From the IMG/VR virus record IMGVR_UViG_3300029914_000004: a stretch of DNA of 64,000 nt; one strand, given 5' to 3'. The notes under the pieces are model-generated. The model had not been told where the DNA came from and ran no database searches. It saw nothing but the letters and a program-made list of their open reading frames with translations. Of this stretch, positions 18,476 through 34,103 are shown piece by piece; positions within the stretch are counted from its first letter, which is position 1, and every line of letters starts with the position of its first letter. Made by a program: the position numbers and the translations under genes. This DNA comes from a virus. Its lineage: Duplodnaviria > Heunggongvirae > Uroviricota > Caudoviricetes.

Positions 18476-21400
18476 TTGAACGATTTTTTAGTTAACCCAC
18501 ACCCATCCCAAGTTACAGTATTTGAAGACAGCTTTTCTGAAGAAGTATGGTCAAATACATATAAAAATTATAAAGACAAAGATATTAATGATACTTTTAA
18601 TCGTGTTGCACAAGCAATTGCAAGCGTAGAAAAAACAGAAGATTTAAGAAAAGAATGGGCAGAAAAATTTTATGATATGATGTGTAATTTTTCTGTCGTT
18701 CCTGGTGGAAGAATTTTAGCAAATGCAGGTACAGAATTTCGTGGAACAAGTTTAATTAATTGTTTTGTTGGTCCAACTCCAAAATATGATTGCGATAGTT
18801 TATCTGGAATTTTAGAAGTTTTAAGAAGCCAATCAATTACTTTAAAGAGCGAAGGTGGGTGGGGAAAGAATTTTTCTTTTATCCGACCAAGAGGAACTTT
18901 TATTAAAGGAATTGGTGTTGAAACTCCTGGAGCAGTAAAGTTTATGGAACTATTTGACAAGAGTTCTGAAATTATTACAGCAGGTTCTGGAAAGAAAGCT
19001 TCAAATAAAAAAGCAAAAGGAAAAATAAGAAAAGGGGCGATGATGGGAATTTTGGATATTTCCCATCCTGACATTATTGAATTTATTACTATAAAGCAAA
19101 CTTCCAATAGATTATCTAAATTTAATCTTAGTATAAACTGCTCTGATAAATTTATGGATAAAGTATTGTTAGTTAGTAAATTAAAAAAAGAAAGTGGTAG
19201 CCAGGAACAAATCGATGAAATAACATGGGATCTAATTTTTCCAGATACAACTTATGAAAAATATAAAGAAGAATGGTGCGGCGATATTCAAGATTGGCAA
19301 GAAAAAAATTATCCAGTAATTGTTTATCAAACAGTAAAAGTAGATTGGTTATGGAACCTTATTACTCAATCAACTTATTCAAGAAATGAACCTGGAATTT
19401 TATTTTTAGATCGTGCAAATAAATTTAATGAATTAAATTATGCTGAAAAAATATTTGCAAGTAACCCATGTGTTACTTTGGATTCATGGGTAACAACAAG
19501 TCGCGGAGCAAAACAAGTTAAAGAATTATTGGGAATTCCATTTACTGCTATTGTTGATGGTATTTGTTGGAATAGTTCTGAAAAGGGATTTTTTGTATCA
19601 GGAAATAAGCCTATTTTAAAAATAAGTACAATAAATGGCTATACCTTAAAAGTTACAGAAAATCATAAAATAAAAATTTTAAGAAATAATAAAATTGATT
19701 GGATTGCTGCTGGAAAATTATCTATTGGTGATCAAATTTTTATTAATAATCATTCGTCAGTAGATGTTAAAATATCTGAAAAAAATGATGCTATTGGATA
19801 TGCGTTAGGATTGCTGGTTGGGGACGGAAATATTAGTGGAAAAAATGCTCATTTATGTTCTTGGGGAAATACAGAAGGAGTTAAAAATGTTCGTAATAAA
19901 GTTATGCAAGAATTGCTTCAATATGCTTCTCCAGCAAAAACTTTTAAAGGATGGCATGAAGTAAAAGGAAGAAATGAATATCGAATTCAATTTAAGGATT
20001 TGCATTCTTATGCAATATCATATGGACTTACTTCATCAAATAAACATGTAAATAAAACAATTGAAGAAGATATTTATATCAGCAAAGGATTTATTCGTGG
20101 GATGTTTGATGCTTATGGGTCTGTTCAAGGAAATAGAGATACAGGTTTGAGTATTCGTCTAAGTCAAAGCAATTTAGAAGATTTGCAAGCAATTCAACGA
20201 ATGTTAGTTAGATGGGGAATTGTTTCTACCATATATGAAAACAAGAGAGATGAATGTTTGAAGGATATGCCTGATGGAAAAGGTGGAAAAAAAGAATATC
20301 TATGTAAAGCAAATCATGAATTGGTATTATCTAAAAGTAATATAGAAAAATATTTAAATATTATTGGATTTTATGATTCAGATAAAAAAGAAAAATGTGA
20401 AAGACTTTTAACTGAATATGTTTATGGATTACATAAAGAAACATATTTAGCAGAAATATCCTCAATTGAAAATTTTCCAAATGAAATTGTAGCGGATTGC
20501 GAAATCCCTGGAATTAATGCATTTGATTGTAATGGATTGGTAATTTCAAATTGCGGAGAGCAATTACTTTCAAATGAAAATATTTGTTGTTTGGGATCTT
20601 TAAATCTAACTCAATTTATTAATAAAAATAGAACTGGATTTGATTTACATAAATTAGCGAAATATACAAAATATTTAATAAGATTTTTGGATAATGTAAA
20701 TGATTATTCAGATGCTCCTCTTCCAGAATACATTAATTCAATGAGAAATAAACGAAGAATTGGCGCAGGATTAATGGGATGGGGAAGCGCATTATTTATT
20801 CTCAAAGTCAAATATGGTTCCAAAGAATCAACAAAGCTAAGAACTGAAATTTTAAAAACTTATACATTGGCTGGTGTTGAAGCGTCATTGGATTTAGCTG
20901 ATGAAAAAGGAATGTTTAATTTATGTGAGCCAGAAAAACATGCCTTTAGTCCATATTGGGATAATATTGATTTGCCAGAAAATCTTCGTAAAAGAATTCT
21001 CAAGAATGGTATTAGAAATTCTTCACTATTTAGTTGCCAACCAACAGGAAATGCTGGTGTAACAGCTCAGATTGTATCGGGTGGAATTGAGCCCGTATTT
21101 ATGTCTGAATATATTAGAACAGTTATCGTATCTTCAACGCCGGATCATATTAAAGATGTAACTCCAAATTGGAATCAAGGAGAATGGGCTGAGACTAATA
21201 TGTTTAAATTCTCCCAAGAAGGAGATGAGCAAATTTTACGCGGTGTGGATAGTAATGGAGTTGTATATAAAATCGATAAAAATAGAGGATTAACAAAAGA
21301 AGTTCTATGTCAGGATTATGGAGTTAGATATTTAACTAAATTTGGAGAGTGGAATCCTTCTGCTGATTGGGCAGCAACAACTACTTCTTTATCAGTCAAA

Positions 21401-22147
21401 GATCATTTGGTTGAATTAGAGGGATTTGCAAAATATTTAGATAGCAGTGTATCAAAAACGATTAATATTCCCAATGATTATCTATTTGAAGATTTTCAAA
21501 ATATATATTTAGATGCATACAATACTGGGTATATCAAAGGATGTACCACATATCGTTCTGGATCAATGACTTCTGTTCTTTCAGCAGTTGATCAAAAAAA
21601 TGATGATATAGATGAAGAAGTTATTTTAGAAGATGTAAAATTGCCTGATAATATGTCTGCTGAAATGAAAGTTCTGCATGATCATGAAGGTGATAGTAGT
21701 CGTAAATGGTATGTAACGATTAGTTTGAATGAAAATAAAGCACCAGTGGCAATATTTGTTCAAACCAATGCAATGGAAAAATCAGTAACAACGAATGATG
21801 CTATTGAAAAATTATTTGCGTTGGCTAAAGTAAAAGGTATTCCAGAACAATATATAGAATCAACATTTAAAAAATGCAATAATGATTCTAATAGTGTTAA
21901 AATTGCTAGAGCAATCGGATTATTATTACGTCATGGAGTAAGAATCAAATATATTGTTGCTGAAATAGATAAAGTTGATGGCGTTACTTTTTCAAGTTTT
22001 CTATTTCATATTAAAAAGATGCTGGGAAGTTTTGTGAAAGATGGCGAAAAAATTGATGGGGCCAAATGCACAGAATGTAATGGTCAACTTGTTTATGAAT
22101 CAGGGTGCCAGAAATGCCTGCAATGTGGAAATTCAAAATGCGGATGA
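18476..22147 (+). CDS. nrdJ: class II (B12-dependent) ribonucleotide reductase with intein
   Basis: PGGRILANAG, NP|C-G-E split by intein, QPTGN, VSKTIN, GCTTYR; C-terminal TSCPD-like and CxxC..CxxC Zn ribbon; no nrdB-like gene in the window. Confidence 0.85.
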   Translation: MNDFLVNPHPSQVTVFEDSFSEEVWSNTYKNYKDKDINDTFNRVAQAIASVEKTEDLRKEWAEKFYDMMCNFSVVPGGRILANAGTEFRGTSLINCFVGPTPKYDCDSLSGILEVLRSQSITLKSEGGWGKNFSFIRPRGTFIKGIGVETPGAVKFMELFDKSSEIITAGSGKKASNKKAKGKIRKGAMMGILDISHPDIIEFITIKQTSNRLSKFNLSINCSDKFMDKVLLVSKLKKESGSQEQIDEITWDLIFPDTTYEKYKEEWCGDIQDWQEKNYPVIVYQTVKVDWLWNLITQSTYSRNEPGILFLDRANKFNELNYAEKIFASNPCVTLDSWVTTSRGAKQVKELLGIPFTAIVDGICWNSSEKGFFVSGNKPILKISTINGYTLKVTENHKIKILRNNKIDWIAAGKLSIGDQIFINNHSSVDVKISEKNDAIGYALGLLVGDGNISGKNAHLCSWGNTEGVKNVRNKVMQELLQYASPAKTFKGWHEVKGRNEYRIQFKDLHSYAISYGLTSSNKHVNKTIEEDIYISKGFIRGMFDAYGSVQGNRDTGLSIRLSQSNLEDLQAIQRMLVRWGIVSTIYENKRDECLKDMPDGKGGKKEYLCKANHELVLSKSNIEKYLNIIGFYDSDKKEKCERLLTEYVYGLHKETYLAEISSIENFPNEIVADCEIPGINAFDCNGLVISNCGEQLLSNENICCLGSLNLTQFINKNRTGFDLHKLAKYTKYLIRFLDNVNDYSDAPLPEYINSMRNKRRIGAGLMGWGSALFILKVKYGSKESTKLRTEILKTYTLAGVEASLDLADEKGMFNLCEPEKHAFSPYWDNIDLPENLRKRILKNGIRNSSLFSCQPTGNAGVTAQIVSGGIEPVFMSEYIRTVIVSSTPDHIKDVTPNWNQGEWAETNMFKFSQEGDEQILRGVDSNGVVYKIDKNRGLTKEVLCQDYGVRYLTKFGEWNPSADWAATTTSLSVKDHLVELEGFAKYLDSSVSKTINIPNDYLFEDFQNIYLDAYNTGYIKGCTTYRSGSMTSVLSAVDQKNDDIDEEVILEDVKLPDNMSAEMKVLHDHEGDSSRKWYVTISLNENKAPVAIFVQTNAMEKSVTTNDAIEKLFALAKVKGIPEQYIESTFKKCNNDSNSVKIARAIGLLLRHGVRIKYIVAEIDKVDGVTFSSFLFHIKKMLGSFVKDGEKIDGAKCTECNGQLVYESGCQKCLQCGNSKCG
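19469..20551 (+). mobile_element. 361-aa intein with LAGLIDADG endonuclease domain
   Basis: starts CVTLDSWV, ends GLVISN followed by Cys+1; blocks LGLLVGDG and RGMFDAYG. Confidence 0.9.
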
Positions 22148-22157
22148 AGGGGGAATT

Positions 22158-23030
22158 ATGGGTTGGACTCAAACTATGGATGGGGACTTTGTGTGGAATA
22201 CTATGAGAAAACCAAGAAAGAAATCTACAAAAAATCTGTGGGAGTTCATTTTTAATGAAAATCCCACAGAACAGGAAAAGTTAGAGGCTGTTAAACAAAA
22301 TGGTTTGCTGCTCGAATTTATTGAAAATCCTTCATATGAAATAATGACAGAAGCTGTACGACAAAATGGAATGGCGATTAGATTAATTGACAATCCAGAT
22401 GATGATTTAAAAATTGTAGCAGTTAAACAAAATGGTTATGTTTTAAAATTTATTGATATTCCAAATGATAAAATTATAAAAGAAGCAATAAAAAAGGATT
22501 ATATTCTAATTAAAACACAAAAAAATCCAAGTGAAGAAATTCAATTAATTGCTGTTAAAAAGAGCAAATCGGCATTTAAGTTGATTGGGAACCCAACAGA
22601 ATTGGTTCAAATTTATTGTGTTGAGAAAGAATCAAAGCTAGTTGAATATATAAGCAATCCGTCTATGGCAGTTCAACTAGCTTTGGTTAATAAAAATCCA
22701 TATGGTATTAGATATATTAAAAATCCACCAGAAGAAATTCAATTAGCTGCGCTGGCAAAAAACAAAAATGTATTAAAATTAATAAATAATCCCAGCGAAA
22801 ATATACAAATTATTATGGTTAAAAAATGTGGAAGTTCGCTTTCATTATTTCCAAATGCAAGTAAAGAAGTTCAAATGGCAGCGATCAACAAAGCTGCAAC
22901 AGCCATTAAATATGTTAAATTTCCAGATGAAGAATTACAAATGACTGCTGTGCAAAAAAAGAAAAGTGCATTGAATTTCATTAAACATCCAACTGCTGCT
23001 GTGAGAATGATGGCAAAAATAGGCTACTAA
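22158..23030 (+). CDS. 22-aa repeat (DUF4116-like) protein, diverged copy
   Basis: about 11 repeats AV.QNG..I.FI.NP.EE.Q; start set at ATG 22158. Confidence 0.75.
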   Translation: MGWTQTMDGDFVWNTMRKPRKKSTKNLWEFIFNENPTEQEKLEAVKQNGLLLEFIENPSYEIMTEAVRQNGMAIRLIDNPDDDLKIVAVKQNGYVLKFIDIPNDKIIKEAIKKDYILIKTQKNPSEEIQLIAVKKSKSAFKLIGNPTELVQIYCVEKESKLVEYISNPSMAVQLALVNKNPYGIRYIKNPPEEIQLAALAKNKNVLKLINNPSENIQIIMVKKCGSSLSLFPNASKEVQMAAINKAATAIKYVKFPDEELQMTAVQKKKSALNFIKHPTAAVRMMAKIGY

Positions 23031-23919: not shown

Positions 23920-24360
23920 ATGACAAGCGTATTTCCAACAACAGGAATGGTGATAATTAACTCGAATTGGCGTAAGAGAAATGTTTCTGTTCATCCTCTT
24001 GAGCAAGCTGCTGTTGACGTTATACAAGCTATCAATGATCTTCCTGTTACAGATTATGGAAAGAGGCAAAATGAAGGAAATGGGATGGCTCGGTCTGAAT
24101 ATTGCTTGCAGAGAGCATTAATATTGATCAATAATCAAATTAACAAAGACAAGTTGCCAGTTCATCCTCTTAGCATGGCTTGTAATGATATTCTCACTGT
24201 TTTGACAGAATATGCAACAGTCGATTATGCAAAGATTCAGTATGATGAAACTGTATTGAAGTCTACTGATACTATTCTTCACAGTACACTTGATTTGGTT
24301 ATTGATCAAATCGCAAAAGACAATGGAAACCAACTACCGCAGCATATCATTGTTACTTGA
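23920..24360 (+). CDS. hypothetical protein with internal duplication
   Basis: two copies of VHPL..A..D.....V.DY.K.Q; GGAG RBS. Confidence 0.6.
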   Translation: MTSVFPTTGMVIINSNWRKRNVSVHPLEQAAVDVIQAINDLPVTDYGKRQNEGNGMARSEYCLQRALILINNQINKDKLPVHPLSMACNDILTVLTEYATVDYAKIQYDETVLKSTDTILHSTLDLVIDQIAKDNGNQLPQHIIVT

Positions 24361-24370
24361 GGAGTTAATT

Positions 24371-24679
24371 ATGAACAAATCAAAAATTACAAAAGAAATT
24401 CTCCCAATCAATGATGCAATTGATCATCCTCTTGTAGTTGGAGATTTTGTGACTGCTGTTTGGGATAGTGGCAATCTTTGCTTATTCAAAGTAATGGGAT
24501 TCGCAAAAAGAAAACGCTGGCTGTTATCTGGGGAAACTTATATTAAGCTAGATCGTGTAAAAAATACTGCTGCTTGGACCAGATATGAAAATGTAAAAAG
24601 GAAGCCTGTGCTCAAAAGAGGAGAGCAAGTGACTTGGGTTGATCCAAACTATGTTTTAATTCACTTTTTGAGCCAGTAA
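24371..24679 (+). CDS. family B-like (SH3/KOW-like) small protein
   Basis: DAIDHPLVVGDFV...YVLIHFLSQ. Confidence 0.6.
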   Translation: MNKSKITKEILPINDAIDHPLVVGDFVTAVWDSGNLCLFKVMGFAKRKRWLLSGETYIKLDRVKNTAAWTRYENVKRKPVLKRGEQVTWVDPNYVLIHFLSQ

Positions 24680-24825
24680 AACATGGAAATATAATATTGA
24701 GATATATTACTAGAAGAAAAAGACAATATACTGCTTTTTATAAAAAATGACAGTGATGAATTTCTTTAGATGAAAGCATGAGAATCAATTCAAAAAGATA
24801 TTGAAGAAAAATTGATGAGGCAATT

Positions 24826-25137
24826 ATGACAGAAAAAGATTTTTCAAAATTCACAGGATATGATGCTTTCGGTCAATCAGTTGTCGCTGGAGATTATGTT
24901 TCTGCTCCTTTTGGAGACAATAGCGATGCTACTTTATTTGTAGTTGATCGCATACTTCCTAATTGGAAAGGAAAATATGGCTCTGGTGGAGGAATATTAC
25001 TATCTATTCATAACAGAGAATCAAAATATTTGTCTGAATGGCAGCGAAGAAACACCAAATTTACCACTGTTCGTGTCTATAAGCAAGTTGTAAAATTGCT
25101 TCCGAGCCAAGTGATGCCGTATTTGCTTAGTAAGTAA
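24826..25137 (+). CDS. family B-like small protein
   Basis: DAFGQSVVAGDYV...VMPYLLSK. Confidence 0.6.
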   Translation: MTEKDFSKFTGYDAFGQSVVAGDYVSAPFGDNSDATLFVVDRILPNWKGKYGSGGGILLSIHNRESKYLSEWQRRNTKFTTVRVYKQVVKLLPSQVMPYLLSK

Positions 25138-25317
25138 AGGAGAAAATTTGGAACTAAATGATAAAACATTAGCTGAATTAGCAGAATATTTGCAAATGAG
25201 ATATGCTCGTTGCAATAAAAATATAGAGTTATTAGGGGACGTGCAAACTACATTGAGTTGGTTTACCCTTATATGGGAAAGAGATTTTTTCCGTGATAAA
25301 TTTTTGGAAAAATAATT

Positions 25318-25821
25318 ATGAATGAAAAAGAACAAATGGCTGCTGTTCGACAAGATGGTCGTGCAATTGAATACATCGACAATCCAAGCGAAGCTGTGCA
25401 ACTGGCTGCTGTTCAACAAAATTATCGTGCAATTCAATACATCGACAAGCCAAGCGAAGCTGTGCAAATGGCTGCTGTTCAAGAAACTAGTCGGGCAATT
25501 TGCTACATCGACAAGCCAAGCGAAGCTGTGCAACTGGCTGCTATTCAACAAAATGGTTGTGCAATTTACCACATCAGCAAGCCAAGCGAAGCTGTGCAAC
25601 TGGCTGCTGTTCAACAATATGGTCGTGCAATTCAATACATCAGGAATCCAAGCGAAGCTGTGCAAATGGCTGCTGTTCGACAAGATGGTCGTGCAATTGT
25701 ATTCATCGACAATCCAACTGAAGCCATGCAAATGGCTGCTATTCAACAAAATGGTAAGGCAATTGAATATATCAAGAAGCCAACAATTAATGTCAAATTA
25801 GTGGCTAAATTGGTGTCTTAA
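25318..25821 (+). CDS. 22-aa tandem-repeat protein (7 units of 66 nt)
   Basis: Q[ML]AA[VI]QQxGxAIxxIxxPSEAV repeats with near-identical nucleotide scaffold. Confidence 0.85.
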   Translation: MNEKEQMAAVRQDGRAIEYIDNPSEAVQLAAVQQNYRAIQYIDKPSEAVQMAAVQETSRAICYIDKPSEAVQLAAIQQNGCAIYHISKPSEAVQLAAVQQYGRAIQYIRNPSEAVQMAAVRQDGRAIVFIDNPTEAMQMAAIQQNGKAIEYIKKPTINVKLVAKLVS

Positions 25822-25898
25822 AATATTCAAAACAAAGCACTTATTTTATTGTTGACAAACAACCCAAACTTTGGTACTATTTAATAGTGAGGGGAAAT

Positions 25899-26228
25899 AT
25901 GACCATTGAATTGACTCGTGAAGGGATCAATGAACAGCTCAGAACGAATGATAGAGCAGTTGCTCGTGCTCTCATTGTAATCAACAACAATCAGACTTTT
26001 GATGAGCAAGCGTGTGAGCAAACCACGCATCACAATGGAACTGGATTTACCAGTTTTGACGCGAAAATGGGAACTTCAATGGCTAATTTCTATGTAAAGT
26101 ATTGCTATCTTTCGCCTAGGCAGTTGGCGTATTGGCGCAAACTTGACAAGAATGGAAACATTCGCATTGGCAAATATTGGCGGCAACTAGTTGACGCTGC
26201 AAATGCCAAGAAAAAGGTGGCTGTTTAA
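25899..26228 (+). CDS. conserved phage hypothetical protein
   Basis: RAL......QT.DEQ...HNG.GFT..DA...TS motif; promoter and RBS upstream. Confidence 0.65.
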   Translation: MTIELTREGINEQLRTNDRAVARALIVINNNQTFDEQACEQTTHHNGTGFTSFDAKMGTSMANFYVKYCYLSPRQLAYWRKLDKNGNIRIGKYWRQLVDAANAKKKVAV

Positions 26229-26938
26229 TGAAAATTAGTTTTCCGTCAATCGCCAATGAAAACTCGTATGTTTATACGTTTGACAGTTATAGCTATAACA
26301 ATTCTTCAGCAATTTGTTCTGATTTTTTATATAAGAAAATAAATGACGAAAAATGGTCCCTCGACCATTCAGTAACAGTTGATTTGTTGGGAGATTATTT
26401 GGCATCATTATCTCTCGCCATGCTATCAAATGATGATTTGAGTCGAGAAATTTCTTGGAAACTTCCTTCCGAAGTTAACAAAAATGAAATTGAATTTGCA
26501 TCGTCTATAACTTATAAAAGTGGAAGCAAGACGCGCTATTATTCAATGGAATTGAGAAAAATTTCTTCAGTTCAATCAAAGAAATATGATCGCAGATTTG
26601 AACAAATAAACAGTGATATGGATGGCTCCCCAAGATCAATTTTTGAATTAATAACTGGCAATAATGGCTGGTCTAATTTATATAAATACGGTCTTGCCGC
26701 TGAAATTCGTGACTGGTTATTTAACAATGGAAACAAACGCACAAAGCGCAAGAGTTCTTATATGCAGCCACCGGCTGAATTTTTGAATTGGACTTCTGAT
26801 GATACCAAAGTTCATGAAATTAGAAATGGTTGGGAAGCTTGTAAATTTGCTATCGCTTCTTATCAAGCAAAACAAAATGTAGCGTCATCCATTTCTTGTT
26901 TTAAGAATTATGCACTTCAATCAAAGTTGGAGAAATAA
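26228..26938 (+). CDS. hypothetical protein
   Basis: 236-aa ORF, translationally coupled. Confidence 0.6.
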   Translation: MKISFPSIANENSYVYTFDSYSYNNSSAICSDFLYKKINDEKWSLDHSVTVDLLGDYLASLSLAMLSNDDLSREISWKLPSEVNKNEIEFASSITYKSGSKTRYYSMELRKISSVQSKKYDRRFEQINSDMDGSPRSIFELITGNNGWSNLYKYGLAAEIRDWLFNNGNKRTKRKSSYMQPPAEFLNWTSDDTKVHEIRNGWEACKFAIASYQAKQNVASSISCFKNYALQSKLEK

Positions 26939-27258
26939 TGAAAAGATCAGAACGCCGTAAATTTATTTCCAAACTGTTTGCAGATTTGAATTGGTTAAAA
27001 TCAAAAGAAAATGCTGATCGAATGGAGTATAAAGGAATCATAGCAACTGGAATTGCGCAAGACGCAGCCGCTATGATTTTTGATTTTGCTGAAAAAGAAA
27101 ATATATCTTTAATTCAATTATTGGATTGGTTAGTACTTGGTATTGCCATGCAGCGTGATCCAGATAGCCAACTTAGAAAAGATTTTATGAAAATATGGCA
27201 AGCGATTGAACCACTGGCAGTAGAAGATTTCAGAAAAAGAATTAAAAGAGGAGAATAA
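26938..27258 (+). CDS. hypothetical protein
   Basis: coupled ORF with GGAG RBS. Confidence 0.6.
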   Translation: MKRSERRKFISKLFADLNWLKSKENADRMEYKGIIATGIAQDAAAMIFDFAEKENISLIQLLDWLVLGIAMQRDPDSQLRKDFMKIWQAIEPLAVEDFRKRIKRGE

Positions 27259-27498
27259 TGAATGATATTACTAATTTATGTCTTGTGTGGTTGCATTTAC
27301 TATGGATTTAGTTATGCTTCTGGCTCTACTTTTCACTTAATGTCAACTAATTCTCAAAGTGAAAAGTTACGCGAATATTCTGAATCAGATAATAAGATAA
27401 AGCAATCATTTGCAAAATTTATGGTGATTCTAACAGTTGTTCTCAAATGGCCAGAAATTTTATTTAAAGAATTAACACGATAAGAAAGGAAAATCATT

Positions 27499-27696
27499 AT
27501 GATGGGATTACTCTATAAGTCCAAAAAGTTATTGAAAGAATCAGTTGGTAAGCCTCTGCGTTATGAAGAGACTTCGATGTTTGGCGAAGAATATAAATCA
27601 AACGGAAAGTTTTGTGGCGTTGGCCCAAGTCCATATGAGCGCAAGTGGTATGCAGAAGTGACTATGGAAAATGGTTTAATAAAGAAAGTCTCTTGA
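27499..27696 (+). CDS. small conserved phage protein
   Basis: L.Y.ETSMFG.EY...G....VGPSPY.RKW.A.VTM.NG.I.KV. Confidence 0.65.
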   Translation: MMGLLYKSKKLLKESVGKPLRYEETSMFGEEYKSNGKFCGVGPSPYERKWYAEVTMENGLIKKVS

Positions 27697-27978
27697 AAGG
27701 AGAATTTATGTTACCGCCAAAAGGTTTTAGAGTTATAAAGATTAGACAATCTCCCACTCTTACCACTCTTCTTAAAACAGTTTTCTGTATTTGTGGAATG
27801 GCGACACTTGGAATTATTGCTTATCTTTTCATCATTTTGAGTTAAAACCATGACAAATAAAATTTGGTCATGAAAGGTAATCGACATATCTATTTAATTT
27901 TTTATTCAGATAGAATTGAACAGATTACTCCAGAATAAGCATTTATTTACAAATTATCAGAATAGAGGGAAATTTTAA

Positions 27979-29064
27979 ATGATTAATTTTTTGATTTTGT
28001 TTTTTGTTCCATTGACTGTGGCAATTATTATTCATTTGCTGTTGCACAAAAATGTGTCGTGGATTGATGTTGCTATTCAATCTGGAATTGTTGCTGCATT
28101 CATAGGAATTTCTTTGACTGTTTGCTATTATTCTACTATTACAGACACAGAAATTTGGAATGGACAGATCACTGCTAGATCAACATATCATGTGAGTTGT
28201 TCTCACAGTTATAGGTGTAATTGCTATATAACAAGTGATAGTAAAGGAAATACTACTGAGCATTGCTCGACTTGTTATGAACATAATTATGACGTGGATT
28301 GGGAATTGGATTCTAATACTGGAGAAAAAGTTTTAATTGATCGAATTGATCGTCAAGGACTTAATATGCCTGATCGATGGGCCAAAGCATATATTGGCGA
28401 ACCATTTTCAAGTTCTCATAGTTTTCAAAATTATATTAAGGCTAATCCTGATTCTGTTTTGTTTGGATCAACTGGTGATGTAGAAAAGTACAAGCAATGG
28501 ATTCCAAAATATCCTGACACTATTTATGATTATTACCGTCATGATTCAGTAATTAATATGGGAGTTCCAAATCTTGATTTAAATGTTTGGAATTGGTTGA
28601 TTCAAAATGACAATAAAATTGTGGGACCATTAAAACAAGCAAATATCATTTTGATTTTTGTCCCATTGTCAAATCGTGACTATGTTGCTGCATTAAAAGA
28701 TGCATGGTTTGGTGGAAAAAAGAATGACATTGATATTATCATTGGCTCTAAAAATGGGCATACTATTGATTTTGTGGATGTAATGAGTTGGACAACTAAT
28801 CCAGCATTTAAAGTTCAATTGAAGAATGAAATATCAACGATTGGCACACTGGATCAACGAGATCAAATTAACTCAGCAATTTTTAATACGACTAAAGATA
28901 AATTCGTTCGTTTGCATATGAAAGATATGAAATATTTAATGCGTTCATATCAACCGTCACGAAAGTCAATGATTATTATTTTTGTGATTAGTTTGATTTT
29001 TAGTATTGCGTATCCAGTAGTGAAATGGTTCGCGCTCAACAACAGTGATCCAAATGACTATTAA
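27979..29064 (+). CDS. membrane protein with Cys-rich extracytoplasmic domain
   Basis: two N-terminal and one C-terminal TM segments; CSHSYRCNC...CSTCYEH. Confidence 0.75.
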   Translation: MINFLILFFVPLTVAIIIHLLLHKNVSWIDVAIQSGIVAAFIGISLTVCYYSTITDTEIWNGQITARSTYHVSCSHSYRCNCYITSDSKGNTTEHCSTCYEHNYDVDWELDSNTGEKVLIDRIDRQGLNMPDRWAKAYIGEPFSSSHSFQNYIKANPDSVLFGSTGDVEKYKQWIPKYPDTIYDYYRHDSVINMGVPNLDLNVWNWLIQNDNKIVGPLKQANIILIFVPLSNRDYVAALKDAWFGGKKNDIDIIIGSKNGHTIDFVDVMSWTTNPAFKVQLKNEISTIGTLDQRDQINSAIFNTTKDKFVRLHMKDMKYLMRSYQPSRKSMIIIFVISLIFSIAYPVVKWFALNNSDPNDY

Positions 29065-29209
29065 TTGGATAAATCATGAATGATTTTGACATTTTATGAA
29101 GCTGTAGAAATTCATGTTATTGTAATATTTTTGATTCTTATTGGCGGAATTAGAATTGGACAAGGTTCTGTAAAGTAATTTAACTTTTAACTTTGAAAAG
29201 GAGAAGAAT

Positions 29210-29800
29210 ATGAAGTATGCTTTGATTGCAGTTGGTTTAGTAGTAGTTTTGGCTGTTCTAGTTTTTGGATCATTGGGAATTGGTTATGTTGGATTCAGTA
29301 ATGATGCGAATCGTTTTGAAGCTGACATTCCTGCGCAGTATGTTCAAATGCAGAATGTATATGATAATGGATGGAAGGAAGTGATGGAAACATCGCAAGT
29401 TCCTGAAAATTATACTGAGGATATGAAGAATGTTTGGCAAGCTTCTTTAACTGGTCGATATGGGGCGAACGGAAGTCAAGCAGTACTTCAATTTATCAAA
29501 GAAAGCAATCCCAACATGGATGCAAGTTTATATAAGCAAGTCCAGGAGAAGATCGAAGAGTTCCATAGTACATTTTCAACTTCGCAGACTCGTATTATTA
29601 GTTTGAAGCAATCATACAATCAATATTTGACAGCCACAACTTCTGGTCGATTTTATAATATGGTTGGGCATTATCCTCATCTTCGTGTTGGTATCCCATA
29701 TGGTTCTGTTGATGATTTTGCAATTTTGACCTCTGGAAAGACTACACAAGACTTCAAAAATCACTCTGCTGAGGTATTGCAGCTTAGACCAAAGAAGTAA
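29210..29800 (+). CDS. membrane-anchored LemA-like protein
   Basis: single N-terminal TM then helical domain; adjacent to the previous membrane gene. Confidence 0.55.
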   Translation: MKYALIAVGLVVVLAVLVFGSLGIGYVGFSNDANRFEADIPAQYVQMQNVYDNGWKEVMETSQVPENYTEDMKNVWQASLTGRYGANGSQAVLQFIKESNPNMDASLYKQVQEKIEEFHSTFSTSQTRIISLKQSYNQYLTATTSGRFYNMVGHYPHLRVGIPYGSVDDFAILTSGKTTQDFKNHSAEVLQLRPKK

Positions 29801-29884
29801 CTTGTTGAAACTAAATAACTTAAAAGCCAATATTTTTATTGACATTGGCTTTTTAATTTGATATACTTGTATTTAGGTGAGCAT

Positions 29885-30100
29885 ATGAGAGATTGCACTG
29901 GTGAACAGCTAAAAGCAGGAGATTATATTTTATATAATGCTATTTTCAATGATAATAATTATTTTTTCTGCGTTACTTCAACAAATAATTTTGTGACTAA
30001 AGTGAAAAATATGGAAGGAGGACGATATACAGTATCGATTCCAGAAAGAATCAAATTGCTTTCTAAAGAGGAAGCATTGATTTATAAGCTGGGACAATGA
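29885..30100 (+). CDS. family B small protein
   Basis: MRDCTGEQLKAGDY...EEALIYKLGQ. Confidence 0.7.
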   Translation: MRDCTGEQLKAGDYILYNAIFNDNNYFFCVTSTNNFVTKVKNMEGGRYTVSIPERIKLLSKEEALIYKLGQ

Positions 30101-30244
30101 CAGATAAAAATGGAACAGAGTTAAAAGTTTTTATTTGAAAATCAACAAAAATAAGAAGGAGGAGAATAAAATGATATTTGTGTTTCTTGTTATATTTTTT
30201 ATTTGCATCGCAATTTTTGGTGAAGTTGAAAAAGGGGATAAATA

Positions 30245-30688
30245 ATGGAAAATGAGAAGAGATTTTATATTTTGGTTCCTAAAACAGTTCAAGTGAAGAC
30301 TGTAGTAAATACGCAGCATATGGTATCAAGTACAATCGAGACATATCCAGTTGAAACAATAACGTCTTTTAGAATGGTTCCTGGTCGTTTGCTGGCGCAG
30401 ACTTTTCATATTGGTAGAAAGATCGAGTCGTGGCGGCGATCCTTGGGAATTCAATATGAAGATATTACAGCAATTTCTCTCAGCGTCCGTAATACTCGTG
30501 AATTGCAAAAAGTTAGCAAGGAATTGATGAGTTTCAAGCTTCGTGAACCTGCTTTTTACGATGAATTTTACGACACAAATCTTGATTTTTATGGTACGAC
30601 TGATAGCGTTCAAACTGCGACAGTTATTGGGCCAGTTTTTAAGGAAGAGTTGGACAGTATTATTGGCCATTTAGAACTGTATGAATAA
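30245..30688 (+). CDS. PTH2-like peptidyl-tRNA hydrolase fold protein
   Basis: MVPGRLLAQTFH, ISLSVRNTREL, FYD, QTATVIGP resemble the PTH2 motifs GK.AAQ.AH, V.L.V...EL, D, T...IGP. Confidence 0.55.
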   Translation: MENEKRFYILVPKTVQVKTVVNTQHMVSSTIETYPVETITSFRMVPGRLLAQTFHIGRKIESWRRSLGIQYEDITAISLSVRNTRELQKVSKELMSFKLREPAFYDEFYDTNLDFYGTTDSVQTATVIGPVFKEELDSIIGHLELYE

Positions 30689-30744
30689 GAAACAAAGAAC
30701 TTATTTTCTTATTGACAAATAAATTTATTTAGGATATTCTTTAT

Positions 30745-31182
30745 ATGAATGAAAAAGCACAACTGGCTGCTGTTCAACAATATGGTCGTGCAATTGAATA
30801 CATCAGCAAGCCAAGCGAAGCTATGCAAATGGCTGCTGTTCAACAAAATGGTCGTGCAATTTACCACATCAGCAATCCAAGCGAAGCTGTGCAACTGGCT
30901 GCTGTTCAACAATATGGTCGTGCAATTGAATACATCAGCAAGCCAAGCGAAGCTGTGCAAATGGCTGCTGTTCAACAATATGGTTGGGCAATTCAATTCA
31001 TCAGCAATCCAAGCGAAGCTGTGCAACTGGTTGCTGTTCAAGAAGATGGTTGTGCAATTCAATTCATCAGCAATCCAAGCGAAGCCATGCAAATGGCTGC
31101 TATTCAACAAAATGGTTGTGCAATTAAATTCATAAAAAATCCAACAATTAATGTCAAATTAGTGGCTAAATTGCTGTCTTAA
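30745..31182 (+). CDS. 22-aa tandem-repeat protein (6 units of 66 nt), paralogue of 25318
   Basis: same repeat; near-identical C-terminus and about 40 nt of 3' flank. Confidence 0.85.
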   Translation: MNEKAQLAAVQQYGRAIEYISKPSEAMQMAAVQQNGRAIYHISNPSEAVQLAAVQQYGRAIEYISKPSEAVQMAAVQQYGWAIQFISNPSEAVQLVAVQEDGCAIQFISNPSEAMQMAAIQQNGCAIKFIKNPTINVKLVAKLLS

Positions 31183-31212
31183 AATATTCAAAACAAAGCA
31201 CTTATTTTATTA

Positions 31213-31241
31213 TTGACATTTAAACTTTAGGATGATATACT
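31213..31241 (+). promoter_or_regulatory. sigma70-type promoter
   Basis: TTGACA-N17-TATACT; preceded by AAAGCACTTATTTT also seen near 25836 and 40906. Confidence 0.85.
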
Positions 31242-31441
31242 GTATTTGCAGTCAAATTTTAGGAGGCGTTATGGAATATGAATTAGTGGAAGATATGGAT
31301 TTTGAAAATGATGTTGTTCTGTTATTTGATGAAAACAGAACTGTTGATTTCGATGAATATGACGTAAATCTTGAATATGGAGATGAACTGGCAAAGCGCG
31401 GCGTTATTTTTTTCTTAAACTACTAAACGAAAGGAAATGAA

Positions 31442-31849
31442 ATGCTGAGCGGAAGTTGGAAGCGTGGTATGGATGCTGCATCTGCTGCGGCCCTGAGTAG
31501 CAACGGGCCGCAGAAGGGATTTCGCCTTGGCGCAGCACTTTATGCTGGTTCAAATTTGCTGGCTGCTGGGCATAATTTTTGGGGAAAGACTACTCCGATT
31601 TCCTCTTTTGATTCTTACAACGGCAATGTTCACGCGGAAATCAGTACGCTTGTGAAACGTAGATATTACGATAAGTCGAACAATCTTATTCTCTATGTTT
31701 CGCGTACTACTACAAATTCGCGCCAAACAGTTGAGCAATATGGATGTTCCCGTCCGTGTAATCGTTGCATGTCTGCTATAAAAGTTGCTGGCGTTCGACG
31801 TGTTCGATTCTTTGACGAGAATGGCGAACCTGCTGAAATCAAACTTTAA
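31442..31849 (+). CDS. Zn-dependent CMP/dCMP/tRNA deaminase-superfamily protein
   Basis: GAAL...AAGHN, VHAE, SRPCNRC, AGVRRV motifs. Confidence 0.85.
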   Translation: MLSGSWKRGMDAASAAALSSNGPQKGFRLGAALYAGSNLLAAGHNFWGKTTPISSFDSYNGNVHAEISTLVKRRYYDKSNNLILYVSRTTTNSRQTVEQYGCSRPCNRCMSAIKVAGVRRVRFFDENGEPAEIKL

Positions 31850-31954
31850 CTTGTTCATTCTAAAGGTCCAAAAATGGCTAAATTGCCCCATAAACCGCTC
31901 TAAGCCTTTGGTAATGTCTAAGTACCAGAAAGCAAAAAGAATCGCTACAAAGTC

Positions 31955-32014
31955 CAAAATAAGTATAGTGTTTTCAACGAGATACAAATCATTGAAAACA
32001 CTATACTTATTTTG
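31955..32014. repeat. perfect 23-bp inverted repeat directly upstream of a TTGACA box
   Basis: CAAAATAAGTATAGTGTTTTCAA / TTGAAAACACTATACTTATTTTG with 14-nt loop. Confidence 0.9.
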
Positions 32015-32837: not shown

Positions 32838-33221
32838 ATGTCAAATAAGATTTTTACCGCAGAGATGTTCACAGCGACGAAATGGGACACAGCACAGGAT
32901 AAAGCTGATTTTGCTAACAAGTTTGTTAGTTTTGTTGAGTCAGGGTTCAAGGAAACACTCTTCACGAAGAAATTTTATACTCGTCTTTCAAATTGTTTTG
33001 GACACATCGCGTCCTATAACAAGCTTGGATTTTATGATAAATGGTTTTCAGATTTTGATTCGCAAGTGCGATTTTTAAATAACGCATTGACTCATCCAAG
33101 CTTTGGTGATGCGTCATACACTTATTCAGATGTTGAAAGAGCATTGAAGATGATAATTACCAATCGCCAGATGATTTCAGGAATTACCACCAGAATGATT
33201 ATGGAAAAATTGATGCGATAA
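32838..33221 (+). CDS. hypothetical protein
   Basis: ORF; ends MEKLMR. Confidence 0.6.
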   Translation: MSNKIFTAEMFTATKWDTAQDKADFANKFVSFVESGFKETLFTKKFYTRLSNCFGHIASYNKLGFYDKWFSDFDSQVRFLNNALTHPSFGDASYTYSDVERALKMIITNRQMISGITTRMIMEKLMR

Positions 33222-33436
33222 TGCGCGATAAAAATTGCAAAATATTAAAAGCAAATGACTATATTTTAATACATTTTTCATCCCAAGATGTATTGGCTCA
33301 AGTTATTGAGCCACAATCTAACAAGTTTAATCAAGCATGGTGCAGAATTCATAATGGCAATCAAACAATTATTGCTTTGAGTGCGTGTAGTTTAATTACA
33401 GAAAACGATGCACTAATTTGGAAGCTGGCGCAATGA
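33221..33436 (+). CDS. family B small protein
   Basis: MRDKNCKILKAND...DALIWKLAQ. Confidence 0.7.
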   Translation: MRDKNCKILKANDYILIHFSSQDVLAQVIEPQSNKFNQAWCRIHNGNQTIIALSACSLITENDALIWKLAQ

Positions 33437-33657
33437 CAGATAAAAATGGAACAAAGTTAAAAAATGGAGATTGGGTTAAAACATCACGTTGGCAAGAAGG
33501 TTGCTATGTTACAATAATGGGAAAAATTATAAAAATTATATACTTTGACAATCTTGCTATTATACAAGACGATAAAGGTTTTATGATTCGTAGAGTCAGT
33601 AATGAAATTGAATTGGCCACAATGGACGAAATGTTAATCTATAAGTTGGAGAGATAA
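33433..33657 (+). CDS. family B small protein
   Basis: MTDKNGTKLKNGDW...EMLIYKLER. Confidence 0.7.
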   Translation: MTDKNGTKLKNGDWVKTSRWQEGCYVTIMGKIIKIIYFDNLAIIQDDKGFMIRRVSNEIELATMDEMLIYKLER

Positions 33658-33888
33658 ATGTTAGATCGCTGCGGAAAAGAATTAAAAGTTGGAGATTGTA
33701 TACGATTTTCTCCTAATCCTGCACACGATACTTTTGATGAAATTTCTTTTATATATAAAATATATACGCAGCGTTCAATGAAAGACGCGGCTATATTTAA
33801 ATATAAAGATGTATTATATGCCAGAAATTCATGCGAAATAGAAAAAATTACCAATGAGGAGGCATTAATTTGGAAATTAGAAAGATAG
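33658..33888 (+). CDS. family B small protein
   Basis: MLDRCGKELKVGD...EALIWKLER. Confidence 0.7.
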   Translation: MLDRCGKELKVGDCIRFSPNPAHDTFDEISFIYKIYTQRSMKDAAIFKYKDVLYARNSCEIEKITNEEALIWKLER

Positions 33889-34103
33889 ATTGCTATAAAA
33901 AGCCAATAAGAATTGGAGATTATGTTTTATATTTTGGATTTAACGCAGTGGGAATAGTTATAGATTCAATTTCTTGCTACAACGATGAATCGTGTGTTTC
34001 ATTCTTTGGAGAAAATTACAACAACAAACTTTATTGGTTGGCATCATCGCAATTAAAAATAATTACCAAAAATGAAGCTTTAATTTGTATATTGGAAAAT
34101 TAA
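33870..34103 (+). CDS. family B small protein
   Basis: IDCYKKPIRIGDY...EALICILEN; start uncertain (ATA 33885?). Confidence 0.6.
   Translation: MEIRKIDCYKKPIRIGDYVLYFGFNAVGIVIDSISCYNDESCVSFFGENYNNKLYWLASSQLKIITKNEALICILEN

What the first reader, a model, noticed from the sequence alone, without database searches (positions are those of the whole stretch)
25318..31200. Two 66-nt tandem-repeat genes with a frozen scaffold and hypervariable fixed positions
Seen: loci 25318 (7 units) and 30745 (6 units). Scaffold codons (GCT GCT, GCA ATT, ATC, CCA AGC GAA GCT, CAA) are essentially identical, including silent sites, across 13 units. Variation is mostly non-synonymous and concentrated at fixed slots: D/N/T/Y, G/Y/S, R/C/W/K, E/Q/C/Y/V/K, Y/H/F, D/S/R/K, N/K. 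The loci also share N- and C-caps and about 40 nt of 3' flank, and an older diverged paralogue sits at 22158. Inference: a modular, recombination-shuffled binding repertoire with a PPR/TALE/DARPin-like surface code, possibly against host defence proteins or nucleic acids.
Basis: partly seen in the sequence, partly recalled or inferred. Interest (0 to 1): 0.7.

Follow-up and report, generated by a model that had tools for sequence, protein, structure and literature searches.

The report
Phage repeat proteins with variable slots
Two small genes of an uncultivated giant peat-bog phage encode helical repeat proteins (DUF4116 family, function unknown) whose 22-residue units are almost identical in DNA except at about nine surface codons; recombination probably keeps the units alike while selection keeps the surface different, and what the proteins bind is unknown.

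Summary
Gene A (25318-25821, 7 units) and gene B (30745-31182, 6 units) are tandem arrays of a 66-nt unit with a near-frozen scaffold, silent sites included, and variation at fixed codons.

Both are clear members of Pfam DUF4116 (PF13475). This is a large, mostly viral family of 22-residue alpha-solenoid repeats with no known function and no solved structure.

They belong to a family of about 10 DUF4116 genes in this 127-kb phage record. The scan had already noted that family in the neighbouring window (e1-1858379).

Across 39 internal units of the young paralogues there are at least 86 non-synonymous and about 6 synonymous changes. For A and B alone the skew is only marginal (p = 0.054).

The variable slots coincide with the family-wide variable positions. 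They lie on the exposed side of the short helix and its two turns.

Independent assemblies show 6-unit and 9-unit forms of gene B and swapped array ends at locus A, with identical flanks. Gene A itself is invariant in four assemblies.

No reverse transcriptase or A-biased changes were found, so this is not a DGR.

The best analogy is the high-internal-conservation repeats of fungal NLRs, or TALE arrays. A binding function is inferred, not shown, and a per-unit TALE/PPR-like "code" has no support.

The parts
25318..25821 (+). Gene A: 167-aa DUF4116 repeat protein. It has an N-cap of 5 aa, 7 units of 22 aa (25333-25794), a C-terminal tail and a stop. It has no promoter of its own and starts 2 nt after the stop of the small ORF 25148-25315.
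   Evidence: ORF and translation. PF13475 E = 4.8e-19, 68 bits against a cut-off of 24.9. PHROG 5925/17056, unknown function. AlphaFold2 pLDDT 98.1. Identical in L010, L011, L013 and L017.
30745..31182 (+). Gene B: 145-aa DUF4116 repeat protein. It has an N-cap, 6 units (30760-31155), a C-terminal tail and a stop. This is the array that differs between assemblies (6-unit and 9-unit forms).
   Evidence: PF13475 E = 7.3e-20. All 23 differences between the window and record G000 lie in 30876-31117. A 9-unit form is in L005; other 6-unit forms are in L004, L006 and G000.
25822..25880 (+). Shared 3' flank of gene A: 36 nt (25822-25857) matching gene B's flank at 35/36 and ending in the -35 hexamer TTGACA (25852-25857). 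The locus-specific spacer and the -10 TACTAT (to 25880) of the promoter of the next gene follow.
   Evidence: Alignment of the two flanks, motif search, promoter scan.
31183..31241 (+). Shared 3' flank of gene B, with the -35 at 31213-31218 and the -10 TATACT ending at 31241. It is the promoter of the downstream gene.
30699..30740 (+). Copy of the same promoter element in front of gene B (-35 TTGACA, 17-nt spacer, -10 TATTCT ending 4 nt before the ATG). The same element precedes five other DUF4116 genes of the record.
   Evidence: 14 copies in G000, 11 of them directly before or after a DUF4116 gene.
22158..23030 (+). Older, diverged DUF4116 paralogue (about 10 degenerate 22-aa units, basic, pI 9.4). 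Its units differ at silent sites as much as at replacement sites.
   Evidence: PF13475 E = 5.1e-15. 10 unit matches. pS 0.60, pN 0.44 between units. pI.

Best explanation
Genes A and B are two of about ten paralogous genes of an uncultivated jumbo phage. Each encodes nothing but a capped array of 22-residue DUF4116 units.

Fold. Each unit is predicted to form a 10-residue helix, a one-residue break, a 6-residue helix and a 5-residue loop. The units stack into an alpha-solenoid.

How the DNA pattern arises. The 66-nt units are kept almost identical, silent sites included, by concerted evolution. That means unequal crossing-over and gene conversion between units, within a gene and between the paralogous loci. 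The promoter copies that bracket most of the genes provide extra homology. About nine codons per unit stay different: the end of the long helix, the turn, the exposed side of the short helix and the loop. Selection favours units with different surface residues at these codons, which are rich in Tyr, Arg, Trp, Cys, Asp, Asn and Ser.

Likely function. The most likely role is a set of small cytoplasmic binding proteins with a conserved framework and a diversified recognition face, probably made early in infection and binding host or phage proteins.

Shown: the family, the predicted fold, the DNA pattern, the excess of replacement changes, the mosaic units, and the unit-number and array-end variants in assemblies. 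Inferred: selection as the cause, the single-face geometry, early expression, and binding with its target.
For: Family: PF13475 well above the cut-off in all three genes. AlphaFold DB DUF4116 clusters match the model with TM up to 0.94. ESM Atlas neighbours are DUF4116 clusters, mostly viral.

Fold: pLDDT 98.1, pTM 0.89, with regular helix(10)-helix(6) units.

Identity by descent, not codon bias: Ala is always GCT at unit positions 3, 4 and 21 but GCA at 11. Ile is ATT at 12 but ATC at 15. Val is GTT at 5 but GTG at 22. Only 5 of 312 four-fold third positions differ from consensus in 39 units.

Concerted evolution: the paralogue at G000 86360 carries its own silent variants (GTA, GGC, AGT) in all three of its units.

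Excess of replacement changes: at least 86 non-synonymous and about 6 synonymous events on a unit tree, binomial p = 3e-5. Without any tree there are 26 distinct replacement codons at the slots against 5 silent variants anywhere, p = 0.005. Silent variants are all rare (at most 2 of 39 units), while slot alleles are common. pN/pS is 1.8-5.1 in the young genes but 0.45-0.74 in the old paralogue, in Salicola phage SCTP-2 gp45 and in two metagenomic homologues.

Mosaicism: 38 of 39 units are distinct. 37 of 55 slot pairs show all four allele combinations. The nearest relatives of gene A's units lie in other genes.

Population variants with flanks 99.98-100% identical:
- a 9-unit gene B (L005, with L007 and L009 agreeing over their length);
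- three different 6-unit forms, each a 198-nt in-frame difference from it;
- locus A ending in units typical of gene B (L012) or of paralogue G at G000 126207 (L014).

Slots equal surface positions: per-position entropy in this phage tracks the entropy in 273 units of distant homologues (rho 0.78, p = 2e-5). On the DSSP assignment, positions 10, 13 and 14 fall on the side of the short helix opposite to the conserved A11, I12 and I15.
Against: - For A and B alone the silent/replacement skew is marginal (p = 0.054).
- Recombination inflates parsimony counts of slot changes, and no recombination-aware codon model could be run.
'One face' rests on helix periodicity and conservation, not on measured exposure.
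- All arrays come from short-read metagenome assemblies. For highly conserved repeats these are known to mis-reconstruct unit order and number (PMC12222747). Logan's 31-mer contigs break at both ends of the array.
- Gene A does not vary between four assemblies, so diversification is not rapid.
- Several family members are decayed: a frameshifted C-cap at G000 126207, a missing C-cap at 111452 and a remnant at 111237. That fits turnover and weak constraint on single copies.
- There are no expression, localisation or binding data.
Confidence: 0.6

Rival explanations
1. Recent amplification without diversifying selection. The units were copied very recently, so silent sites have had no time to change. 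The slot differences are simply unconstrained surface positions drifting, or old unit types inherited and reshuffled.
For: The slots are the family's generally unconstrained positions. For A and B alone the skew is marginal. Units 1-3 and 4-6 of the 9-unit gene B differ at only 3 of 198 nt, so very recent duplication does occur. Decayed copies exist.
Against: Neutral drift predicts equal rates at unconstrained replacement sites and silent sites. Observed rates are at least 3.3-fold higher at the slots even when only distinct variants are counted (p = 0.005), and 4-6-fold higher on a tree. Six of 23 variant codons in A and B differ by two or three bases, with no silent change nearby. Slot alleles are frequent while silent variants are singletons or doubletons.
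Confidence: 0.17
2. Assembly artefact. The arrays, or at least their unit order and number, are wrong paths through a repeat graph. The differences between assemblies are collapse errors, not biology.
For: Illumina assemblies fail on such repeats in fungal NLR genes (PMC12222747). Many contigs end inside or at the arrays (L007, L008, L009, L012, L014). 31-mer contigs cannot bridge the array. The 6-unit forms differ from the 9-unit form by exactly one 198-nt higher-order repeat that is 98.5% identical to its neighbour.
Against: Gene A is reconstructed identically in four assemblies from different samples and assemblers. The ENA contigs are named k141_..., which I read (my inference, not a tool result) as a 141-base assembly word. 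If so, contigs hold only 141-mers seen in reads. The diagnostic spans are shorter than that: about 135 nt for the window/L004 form, about 96 nt for L006 and about 60 nt for the L014 join. The chimeric last unit of G000 joins two unlike units inside the scaffold, which a collapse of near-identical copies does not produce. Frames stay open and every change is a multiple of 66 nt.
Confidence: 0.1
3. Sequence-reading repeat protein. Like TALE or PPR proteins, each unit reads one base of DNA or RNA through its slot residues.
For: It shows the same kind of DNA pattern as TALE arrays, with near-identical repeats and a few hypervariable codons. It is a helical solenoid, and PPR proteins appear among the weak structural matches (Z 4.7-5.8). 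The older paralogue is basic (pI 9.4).
Against: The unit is 22 aa, not 33-35. There is no Pfam match to TAL effector or PPR families. A and B are near neutral (net charge -0.4), unlike nucleic-acid binders. About nine positions per unit vary, not two. Arrays of 2-10 units would read very short sites. The PDB matches are generic and have high rmsd.
Confidence: 0.06
4. Targeted mutagenesis. A diversity-generating retroelement or a similar system rewrites the slot codons.
For: Variation is confined to fixed codons. At unit position 8 every variant is a change of an A in AAT.
Against: The 127-kb record has no reverse transcriptase, although it is only about half of the genome. The changes are not A-biased: G>A is commonest, and A changes are 41 of 210. 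There is no template/variable repeat pair. Slot residues of gene A are identical in four assemblies, so there is no ongoing rewriting.
Confidence: 0.02

Closest known systems
Pfam DUF4116 (PF13475); PHROGs 5925 and 17056
   Same: Genes A, B and the older paralogue are members. Scores are 55-71 bits against a cut-off of 24.9. They share the repeat consensus (NPSEAVQLAAV...G.AI.YI) and the predicted fold of AlphaFold DB DUF4116 clusters (TM up to 0.94). The family is multi-copy in the jumbo phages Salicola SCTP-2 (22 places) and Agrobacterium Atu_ph07 (14 places).
   Different: The family has no assigned function and no solved structure. The near-identity of units at silent sites together with pN/pS above 1 was seen only in this phage's young paralogues. 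It was not seen in SCTP-2 gp45, in two metagenomic homologues or in the older paralogue.
High-internal-conservation (HIC) repeats of fungal NLRs, e.g. Podospora het-d/het-e WD40 repeats (PMC12222747)
   Same: The repeats are 80-100% identical through concerted evolution. A few fixed codons are hypervariable under diversifying selection and map to the interaction surface. Repeat gain, loss and shuffling occur within and between paralogous loci. Short-read assemblies are unreliable for them.
   Different: Those are beta-propeller repeats forming the sensor domain of large NLR immune receptors of a eukaryote. Here the units are 22-aa helical units that make up the whole of small phage proteins, with no NB-ARC/NACHT or effector domain. 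The resemblance is in evolutionary mechanism only, not in homology.
TAL effector repeat arrays
   Same: Tandem repeats nearly identical in DNA, with variation confined to fixed codons, and arrays that evolve by repeat recombination (my own knowledge, not tested here).
   Different: TALE units are 33-35 aa with two variable residues, each reading one DNA base. Here units are 22 aa with about nine variable positions, the proteins are neutral, and there is no Pfam match.
PeSL (promoter-early stem-loop) cassettes of T4-type phages (Arbiol et al. 2010, PMC2839356)
   Same: Copies of one strong sigma-70-like promoter bracket small non-essential genes and can serve as recombination sites for modular shuffling. 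Here 11 of 14 promoter copies flank DUF4116 genes, and the A/B homology ends at the -35 hexamer.
   Different: No stem-loop terminator accompanies the promoter at these two genes. Gene A has no upstream copy. Recombination at the promoters was not shown here.
Designed consensus repeat binders (DARPins, designed armadillo repeats) and the LRV repeat (PDB 1lrv)
   Same: A fixed framework with varied surface positions. These are among the best, though weak, structural matches (6sa7 Z 6.4, 6moj Z 5.4, 1lrv Z 5.2). LRV also alternates a longer and a shorter helix in a 24-residue unit (my own knowledge).
   Different: The rmsd is 5-8 A and sequence identity 6-13%. Foldseek found no PDB match with E below 0.1. 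The resemblance is in general architecture only.

Membership tests
DUF4116 (PF13475) | Match to the Pfam model above its gathering score | tested here: met
   68.1, 70.7 and 55.2 bits against a cut-off of 24.9 for genes A, B and the older paralogue.
DUF4116 (PF13475) | Same predicted fold as other family members | tested here: met
   AlphaFold DB clusters named DUF4116 match with TM 0.94 and rmsd 1.1 A over 163 residues, among many others. ESM Atlas structural neighbours have TM up to 0.93.
HIC repeats (fungal NLR type) | Units more than 80% identical in DNA within a gene | tested here: met
   84-89% matches by TRF. Internal units differ at 0-7 of 66 nt from their nearest unit.
HIC repeats (fungal NLR type) | Fixed hypervariable codons with an excess of replacement changes | tested here: met
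   At least 86 replacement against about 6 silent events, p = 3e-5. Distinct variants give p = 0.005. For A and B alone the skew is marginal, p = 0.054. Not corrected for recombination.
HIC repeats (fungal NLR type) | Repeat-number polymorphism and exchange between paralogues in populations | tested here: inconclusive
   There are 6- and 9-unit forms of gene B, and array ends typical of gene B or of paralogue G (G000 126207) at locus A. These come from short-read assemblies only. Long reads are lacking.
HIC repeats (fungal NLR type) | Repeats form the sensor domain of an NLR (NACHT/NB-ARC plus effector domain) | tested here: not met
   The proteins consist of caps and repeats only. No other Pfam domain is present.
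TAL effectors | 33-35-aa repeats with two variable residues (positions 12/13) and a match to the TAL effector repeat family | tested here: not met
   The unit is 22 aa with about nine variable positions. The only Pfam repeat family above its cut-off is DUF4116.
PPR proteins | 35-aa helix-turn-helix units and a match to PPR models | tested here: not met
   The unit is 22 aa and there is no PPR match in Pfam. Structural similarity to PPR chains is Z 4.6-5.8 with rmsd 9-14 A, which by itself is inconclusive.
Ankyrin repeats / DARPins | 33-aa unit with a beta-hairpin or loop plus two helices, and a match to Ank models | tested here: not met
   The unit is 22 aa with two helices and no hairpin. There is no Ank match. 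The fold comparison (Z up to 6.4) is inconclusive.
Diversity-generating retroelement target | Reverse transcriptase and a template repeat near the variable repeat | tested here: inconclusive
   PF00078 has no match in the 127-kb record, but the record is about 49% complete.
Diversity-generating retroelement target | Variation restricted to adenines of the template | tested here: not met
   Changes from the unit consensus: G>A 69, T>C 23, G>T 21, C>A 19. Changes of A are 41 of 210.
PeSL cassettes | Strong sigma-70-like early promoter repeated around small genes | tested here: met
   14 copies of one promoter element in G000, 11 of them beside DUF4116 genes. They match 10-11 of 12 consensus positions. 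Activity was not tested.
PeSL cassettes | Stem-loop terminator joined to the promoter | tested here: not met
   No terminator-like site lies between the stop codons and the promoters at 25822-25880, 30689-30740 or 31183-31241.

The most novel reading that the evidence does not exclude
The roughly ten DUF4116 genes would form a phage-encoded combinatorial binder repertoire: a natural 'consensus-framework, randomised-surface' library. Unit shuffling within and between promoter-bracketed loci would continually make new recognition surfaces, and selection would keep those that neutralise changing host proteins such as defence systems. It would be the phage counterpart of the HIC repeats of fungal immune receptors and of TALE arrays, built on a fold with no solved structure.
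Probability: 0.25. Interest if true: 0.75.

Novelty: new variant of a known kind. Interest (0 to 1): 0.5.

Why it matters
DUF4116 is one of the large repeat families of phages and giant viruses. It has no function, no structure and almost no literature: four papers in the searched library mention it, none on function.

This phage offers an unusually clean natural experiment. About 40 units share one framework down to the silent sites and differ only at surface codons. The family's functional surface can therefore be read directly from the sequence, and matched sets of natural variants are available for binding screens.

If the proteins prove to be diversified binders of host factors, this would be a mode of phage adaptation not described for phages in the papers I searched: concerted evolution plus slot diversification, known so far from fungal NLRs and TALEs. 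The framework might also be a compact 22-residue scaffold for protein engineering.

If they are ordinary repeat proteins, the case still warns that such arrays are reconstructed differently by different short-read assemblies.

Tried and rejected
Searches for related sequence:
- Megablast of 24000-32000 against 50,697 phage records gave no match.
- Exact flank patterns and a neighbour protein in IMG/VR contigs found nothing. Own and near records are left out there.
- An exact-protein look-up of ORF 25887-26228 found nothing, probably because the called start differs.

Sequencing runs:
- 24 peat-metagenome holders were listed, and no RNA holder was listed.
- Laying four runs (Logan 31-mer contigs) could not bridge the array. 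Flank contigs stop at 30723 and resume at 31182-31216. The array is covered by about 150-170 short unitigs per run that also come from the paralogues, so the 'other letters' there cannot be assigned to locus B.

Structure comparisons:
- The PDB sequence search gave nothing relevant.
- Foldseek against the PDB gave no match with E below 0.1.
- VIA-align against 48,161 chains gave only generic helical repeats, with Z up to 6.4.

Family context:
- Fusion partners of DUF4116 in other proteins (DUF7666, DUF6378, DUF7220, PcfJ-like and others) are themselves of unknown function and gave no functional clue.

Readings considered and rejected:
- A DGR.
- Codon bias as the cause of the frozen silent sites, because the synonymous codon is position-specific.
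- The long ORFs in other frames and on the minus strand of the arrays (25021-25749 minus strand, 25322-25801, 30749-31135, 30709-31110 minus strand), which are stop-free by-products of the repeat.

No complex prediction was run, because no partner is known.

Full report
WHAT IS THERE

The window is bases 19536-83535 of a 127-kb IMG/VR virus record that CheckV rates as about 49% complete. It has about 33% G+C, nearly all genes lie on the + strand, and the window holds 24 tRNA genes. All runs that hold the sequence are peat metagenomes. This is an uncultivated jumbo phage.

Tandem Repeats Finder reports a 66-nt period at 25333-25783 (6.8 copies) and at 30760-31144 (5.8 copies, also 132 nt). Both arrays lie in + strand ORFs. 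Gene A is 25318-25821 (167 aa) and gene B is 30745-31182 (145 aa). Each consists of a five-residue N-cap, 7 or 6 units of 22 residues, and a short C-terminal tail.

- the invariant scaffold codons and the seven named slots;
- the shared caps;
- the shared 3' flank, 35 of 36 nt;
- an older paralogue, ORF 22041-23030 with probable start at 22158.

WHAT FAMILY

All three proteins match Pfam DUF4116 (PF13475) far above the gathering score. They also match PHROGs 5925 and 17056, both of unknown function.

The library of papers holds four that mention DUF4116, none on function. One modelling study predicted an alpha-solenoid. No solved structure is related by sequence.

Hundreds of homologues exist, mostly repeat-only proteins from metagenomes and viruses. 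ESM Atlas neighbours are chiefly Uroviricota and Nucleocytoviricota. The cultured jumbo phages Salicola SCTP-2 and Agrobacterium Atu_ph07 carry 22 and 14 matching places.

FOLD

With a 45-sequence alignment, AlphaFold2 gives mean pLDDT 98.1 and pTM 0.89. I number the unit from the invariant Gln (consensus QLAAVQQNGRAIEYISNPSEAV).

Each unit has:
- a 10-residue helix (positions 20-7);
- a break at position 8;
- a 6-residue helix (positions 9-14);
- a loop (positions 15-19).

AlphaFold DB DUF4116 clusters superpose at TM up to 0.94. Against the PDB, Foldseek finds nothing with E below 0.1. An exhaustive VIA-align search gives only generic solenoids: armadillo/DARPin fusions, ankyrin, PPR and the LRV repeat, with Z up to 6.4 and high rmsd. 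The DARPin/PPR/TALE comparison therefore holds for architecture only. The unit length and the Pfam results exclude membership.

THE DNA PATTERN

I built a unit profile and ran it over the six frames of the record. It finds about ten DUF4116 genes. Seven are 'young': A, B and the genes at G000 86360, 100991, 111452, 116433 and 126207. The gene at 86360 has its own set of silent codons (see below), so the pooled counts use the other six.

In 39 internal units of those six genes:
- 38 are distinct;
- only 5 of 312 four-fold third positions differ from consensus;
- silent variants never occur in more than two units, whereas slot alleles are common.

The synonymous codon is position-specific, which shows identity by descent rather than codon preference:
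- Ala is GCT at positions 3, 4 and 21, but GCA at 11.
- Ile is ATT at 12, but ATC at 15.
- Val is GTT at 5, but GTG at 22.

The gene at 86360 carries its own silent variants in all three of its units. That is the classical mark of concerted evolution.

A parsimony count on a unit tree gives at least 86 replacement and about 6 silent events (omega about 4, binomial p = 3e-5). A tree-free lower bound is 26 distinct replacement codons at the slots against 5 silent variants anywhere (p = 0.005). For A and B alone the skew is marginal (2 against 23, p = 0.054; pN/pS 2.8).

pN/pS between units is 1.8-5.1 in the young genes. It is 0.45-0.74 in the 86360 gene, the old paralogue, SCTP-2 gp45 and two metagenomic homologues. 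The pattern is thus a feature of this phage's young paralogues, not of the family as a whole.

Recombination confounds all these counts. 37 of 55 slot pairs show all four allele combinations, including adjacent codons 16 and 17. That means frequent exchange, recurrent mutation, or both.

WHERE THE SLOTS LIE

Per-position entropy among this phage's units correlates with entropy among 273 units taken from distant homologues (Spearman 0.78, p = 2e-5). The slots are therefore the family's generic variable positions, and position 10 is the most variable in both sets.

On the DSSP assignment, slots 10, 13 and 14 fall on the arc of the short helix opposite the conserved A11, I12 and I15. Slots 6-9 are the preceding helix end and turn. 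Slots 16 and 17 are in the following loop. The long helix is Ala-rich and conserved all round.

I infer one variable side, formed by the short-helix layer and its two edges, and one conserved side.

Slot residues are rich in Tyr, Arg, Trp, Cys, Asp, Asn and Ser. Such residues are typical of protein-binding surfaces (my own knowledge). A and B are near neutral (pI 6.6), which speaks weakly against nucleic-acid binding or DNA mimicry.

POPULATION VARIATION

The held genome record and the window are identical over 64 kb except at 23 positions, all inside gene B's array.

Contigs from other assemblies that carry the exact neighbouring proteins show the following at locus B:
- A 9-unit gene B in L005. 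L007 and L009 agree with it as far as they reach.
- Three different 6-unit forms: window/L004, L006 and G000.
- Each 6-unit form differs from the 9-unit form by one in-frame 198-nt step at a different register.
- The G000 form has a chimeric last unit joined inside the scaffold.

Units 1-3 and 4-6 of the 9-unit form differ at 3 of 198 nt.

At locus A, four assemblies (L010, L011, L013, L017) are letter-identical to the window. L012 ends in units like those of gene B, and L014 ends in the frameshifted tail of the gene at 126207. Both are joined to locus A's unique flank.

Flanks are 99.98-100% identical throughout. This supports unequal crossing-over and exchange between loci.

The caution is that all of this is short-read assembly, which is known to fail on such repeats (PMC12222747). 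Some ENA and JGI assemblies may also derive from the same reads. The ENA contigs are named k141_..., which I read (my inference) as a 141-base assembly word. If so, each diagnostic junction spans fewer than 141 nt, so the junctions themselves should exist in reads even if long-range order is uncertain. Logan's 31-mer contigs cannot bridge the array.

FLANKS

The shared 3' flank ends exactly at the -35 hexamer of the promoter of the next gene. The same element (ACTTATTTTCTTATTGACA) occurs 14 times in the record, 11 of them directly before or after a DUF4116 gene. Gene B has a copy upstream and gene A does not.

This resembles the PeSL cassettes of T4-type phages (PMC2839356), but no stem-loop is present. 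I re-derived those points here independently. Other notes of the scan report DUF4116 arrays fused to F-box and HECT domains. I did not test these, and they serve only as leads for a protein-binding role.

MECHANISM AND RIVALS

Best reading (confidence 0.6): concerted evolution homogenises the units while diversifying selection keeps the surface codons apart. The result is a set of small binding proteins with one framework and many surfaces. The target is unknown.

Rivals:
- recent amplification with neutral surface drift (0.17);
- assembly artefact as the source of the variants (0.10);
- a TALE/PPR-like nucleic-acid reader (0.06);
- DGR-type targeted mutagenesis (0.02). There is no reverse transcriptase in the record, no A bias, and gene A is stable across samples.

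VERDICT

The thing is a member of a known but uncharacterised family. It shows an evolutionary mode known from fungal NLR repeats and TALEs that I did not find described for phage proteins. Function remains inferred.

Interest is moderate (0.5).

Noticed in passing
window 30876-31117 against G000:C1:50411-50652: The window and the held genome record are identical over 64,000 bases except at 23 positions, all inside gene B's repeat array. The two texts therefore hold different array versions of the same phage.
   Followed up: yes
window 30712-30745; G000 100967, 111428, 116409, 126183: The -10 hexamer (TATTCT) of the promoter in front of the DUF4116 genes ends 4 nt (gene B) or 6 nt (four other copies) before the ATG, and no Shine-Dalgarno sequence lies between them. 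The mRNAs may be leaderless.
   Followed up: partly
G000:C1:126207-126710, 111452-112138, 111237-111407 (outside the window): Some family members are decayed. One has a 1-nt deletion that frameshifts the C-cap, one lacks the C-cap, and a remnant of a gene end lies just upstream of another copy.
   Followed up: partly
window 29858-30100, 33221-34103 (also 24290-24679 and 24826-25137): This is a second paralogous family of small (71-80 aa) proteins with similar C-terminal ends (such as ...EALIWKLER). Four of them stand in tandem at 33221-34103.
   Followed up: no
window 18476-22147: A 1223-aa ORF looks like a ribonucleotide reductase interrupted by an intein-like insert, judged from the translation only. 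Its 3' end overlaps the long form of the older DUF4116 ORF.
   Followed up: no
window 24593-24669 against L010: A JGI contig that is otherwise 100% identical lacks 75 nt here, inside the ORF 24290-24679. This is another indel polymorphism in the small-gene region.
   Followed up: no
window 30245-30688: The 147-aa protein just upstream of gene B has a weak, sub-threshold match to peptidyl-tRNA hydrolase PTH2 (E = 3e-4, 21.4 bits against a cut-off of 23).
   Followed up: no
window 25021-25749 (-), 25322-25801 (+), 30709-31110 (-), 30749-31135 (+): Long stop-free ORFs run in other frames and on the opposite strand of both arrays. They are by-products of the repeat and could be mis-called as genes.
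   Followed up: partly
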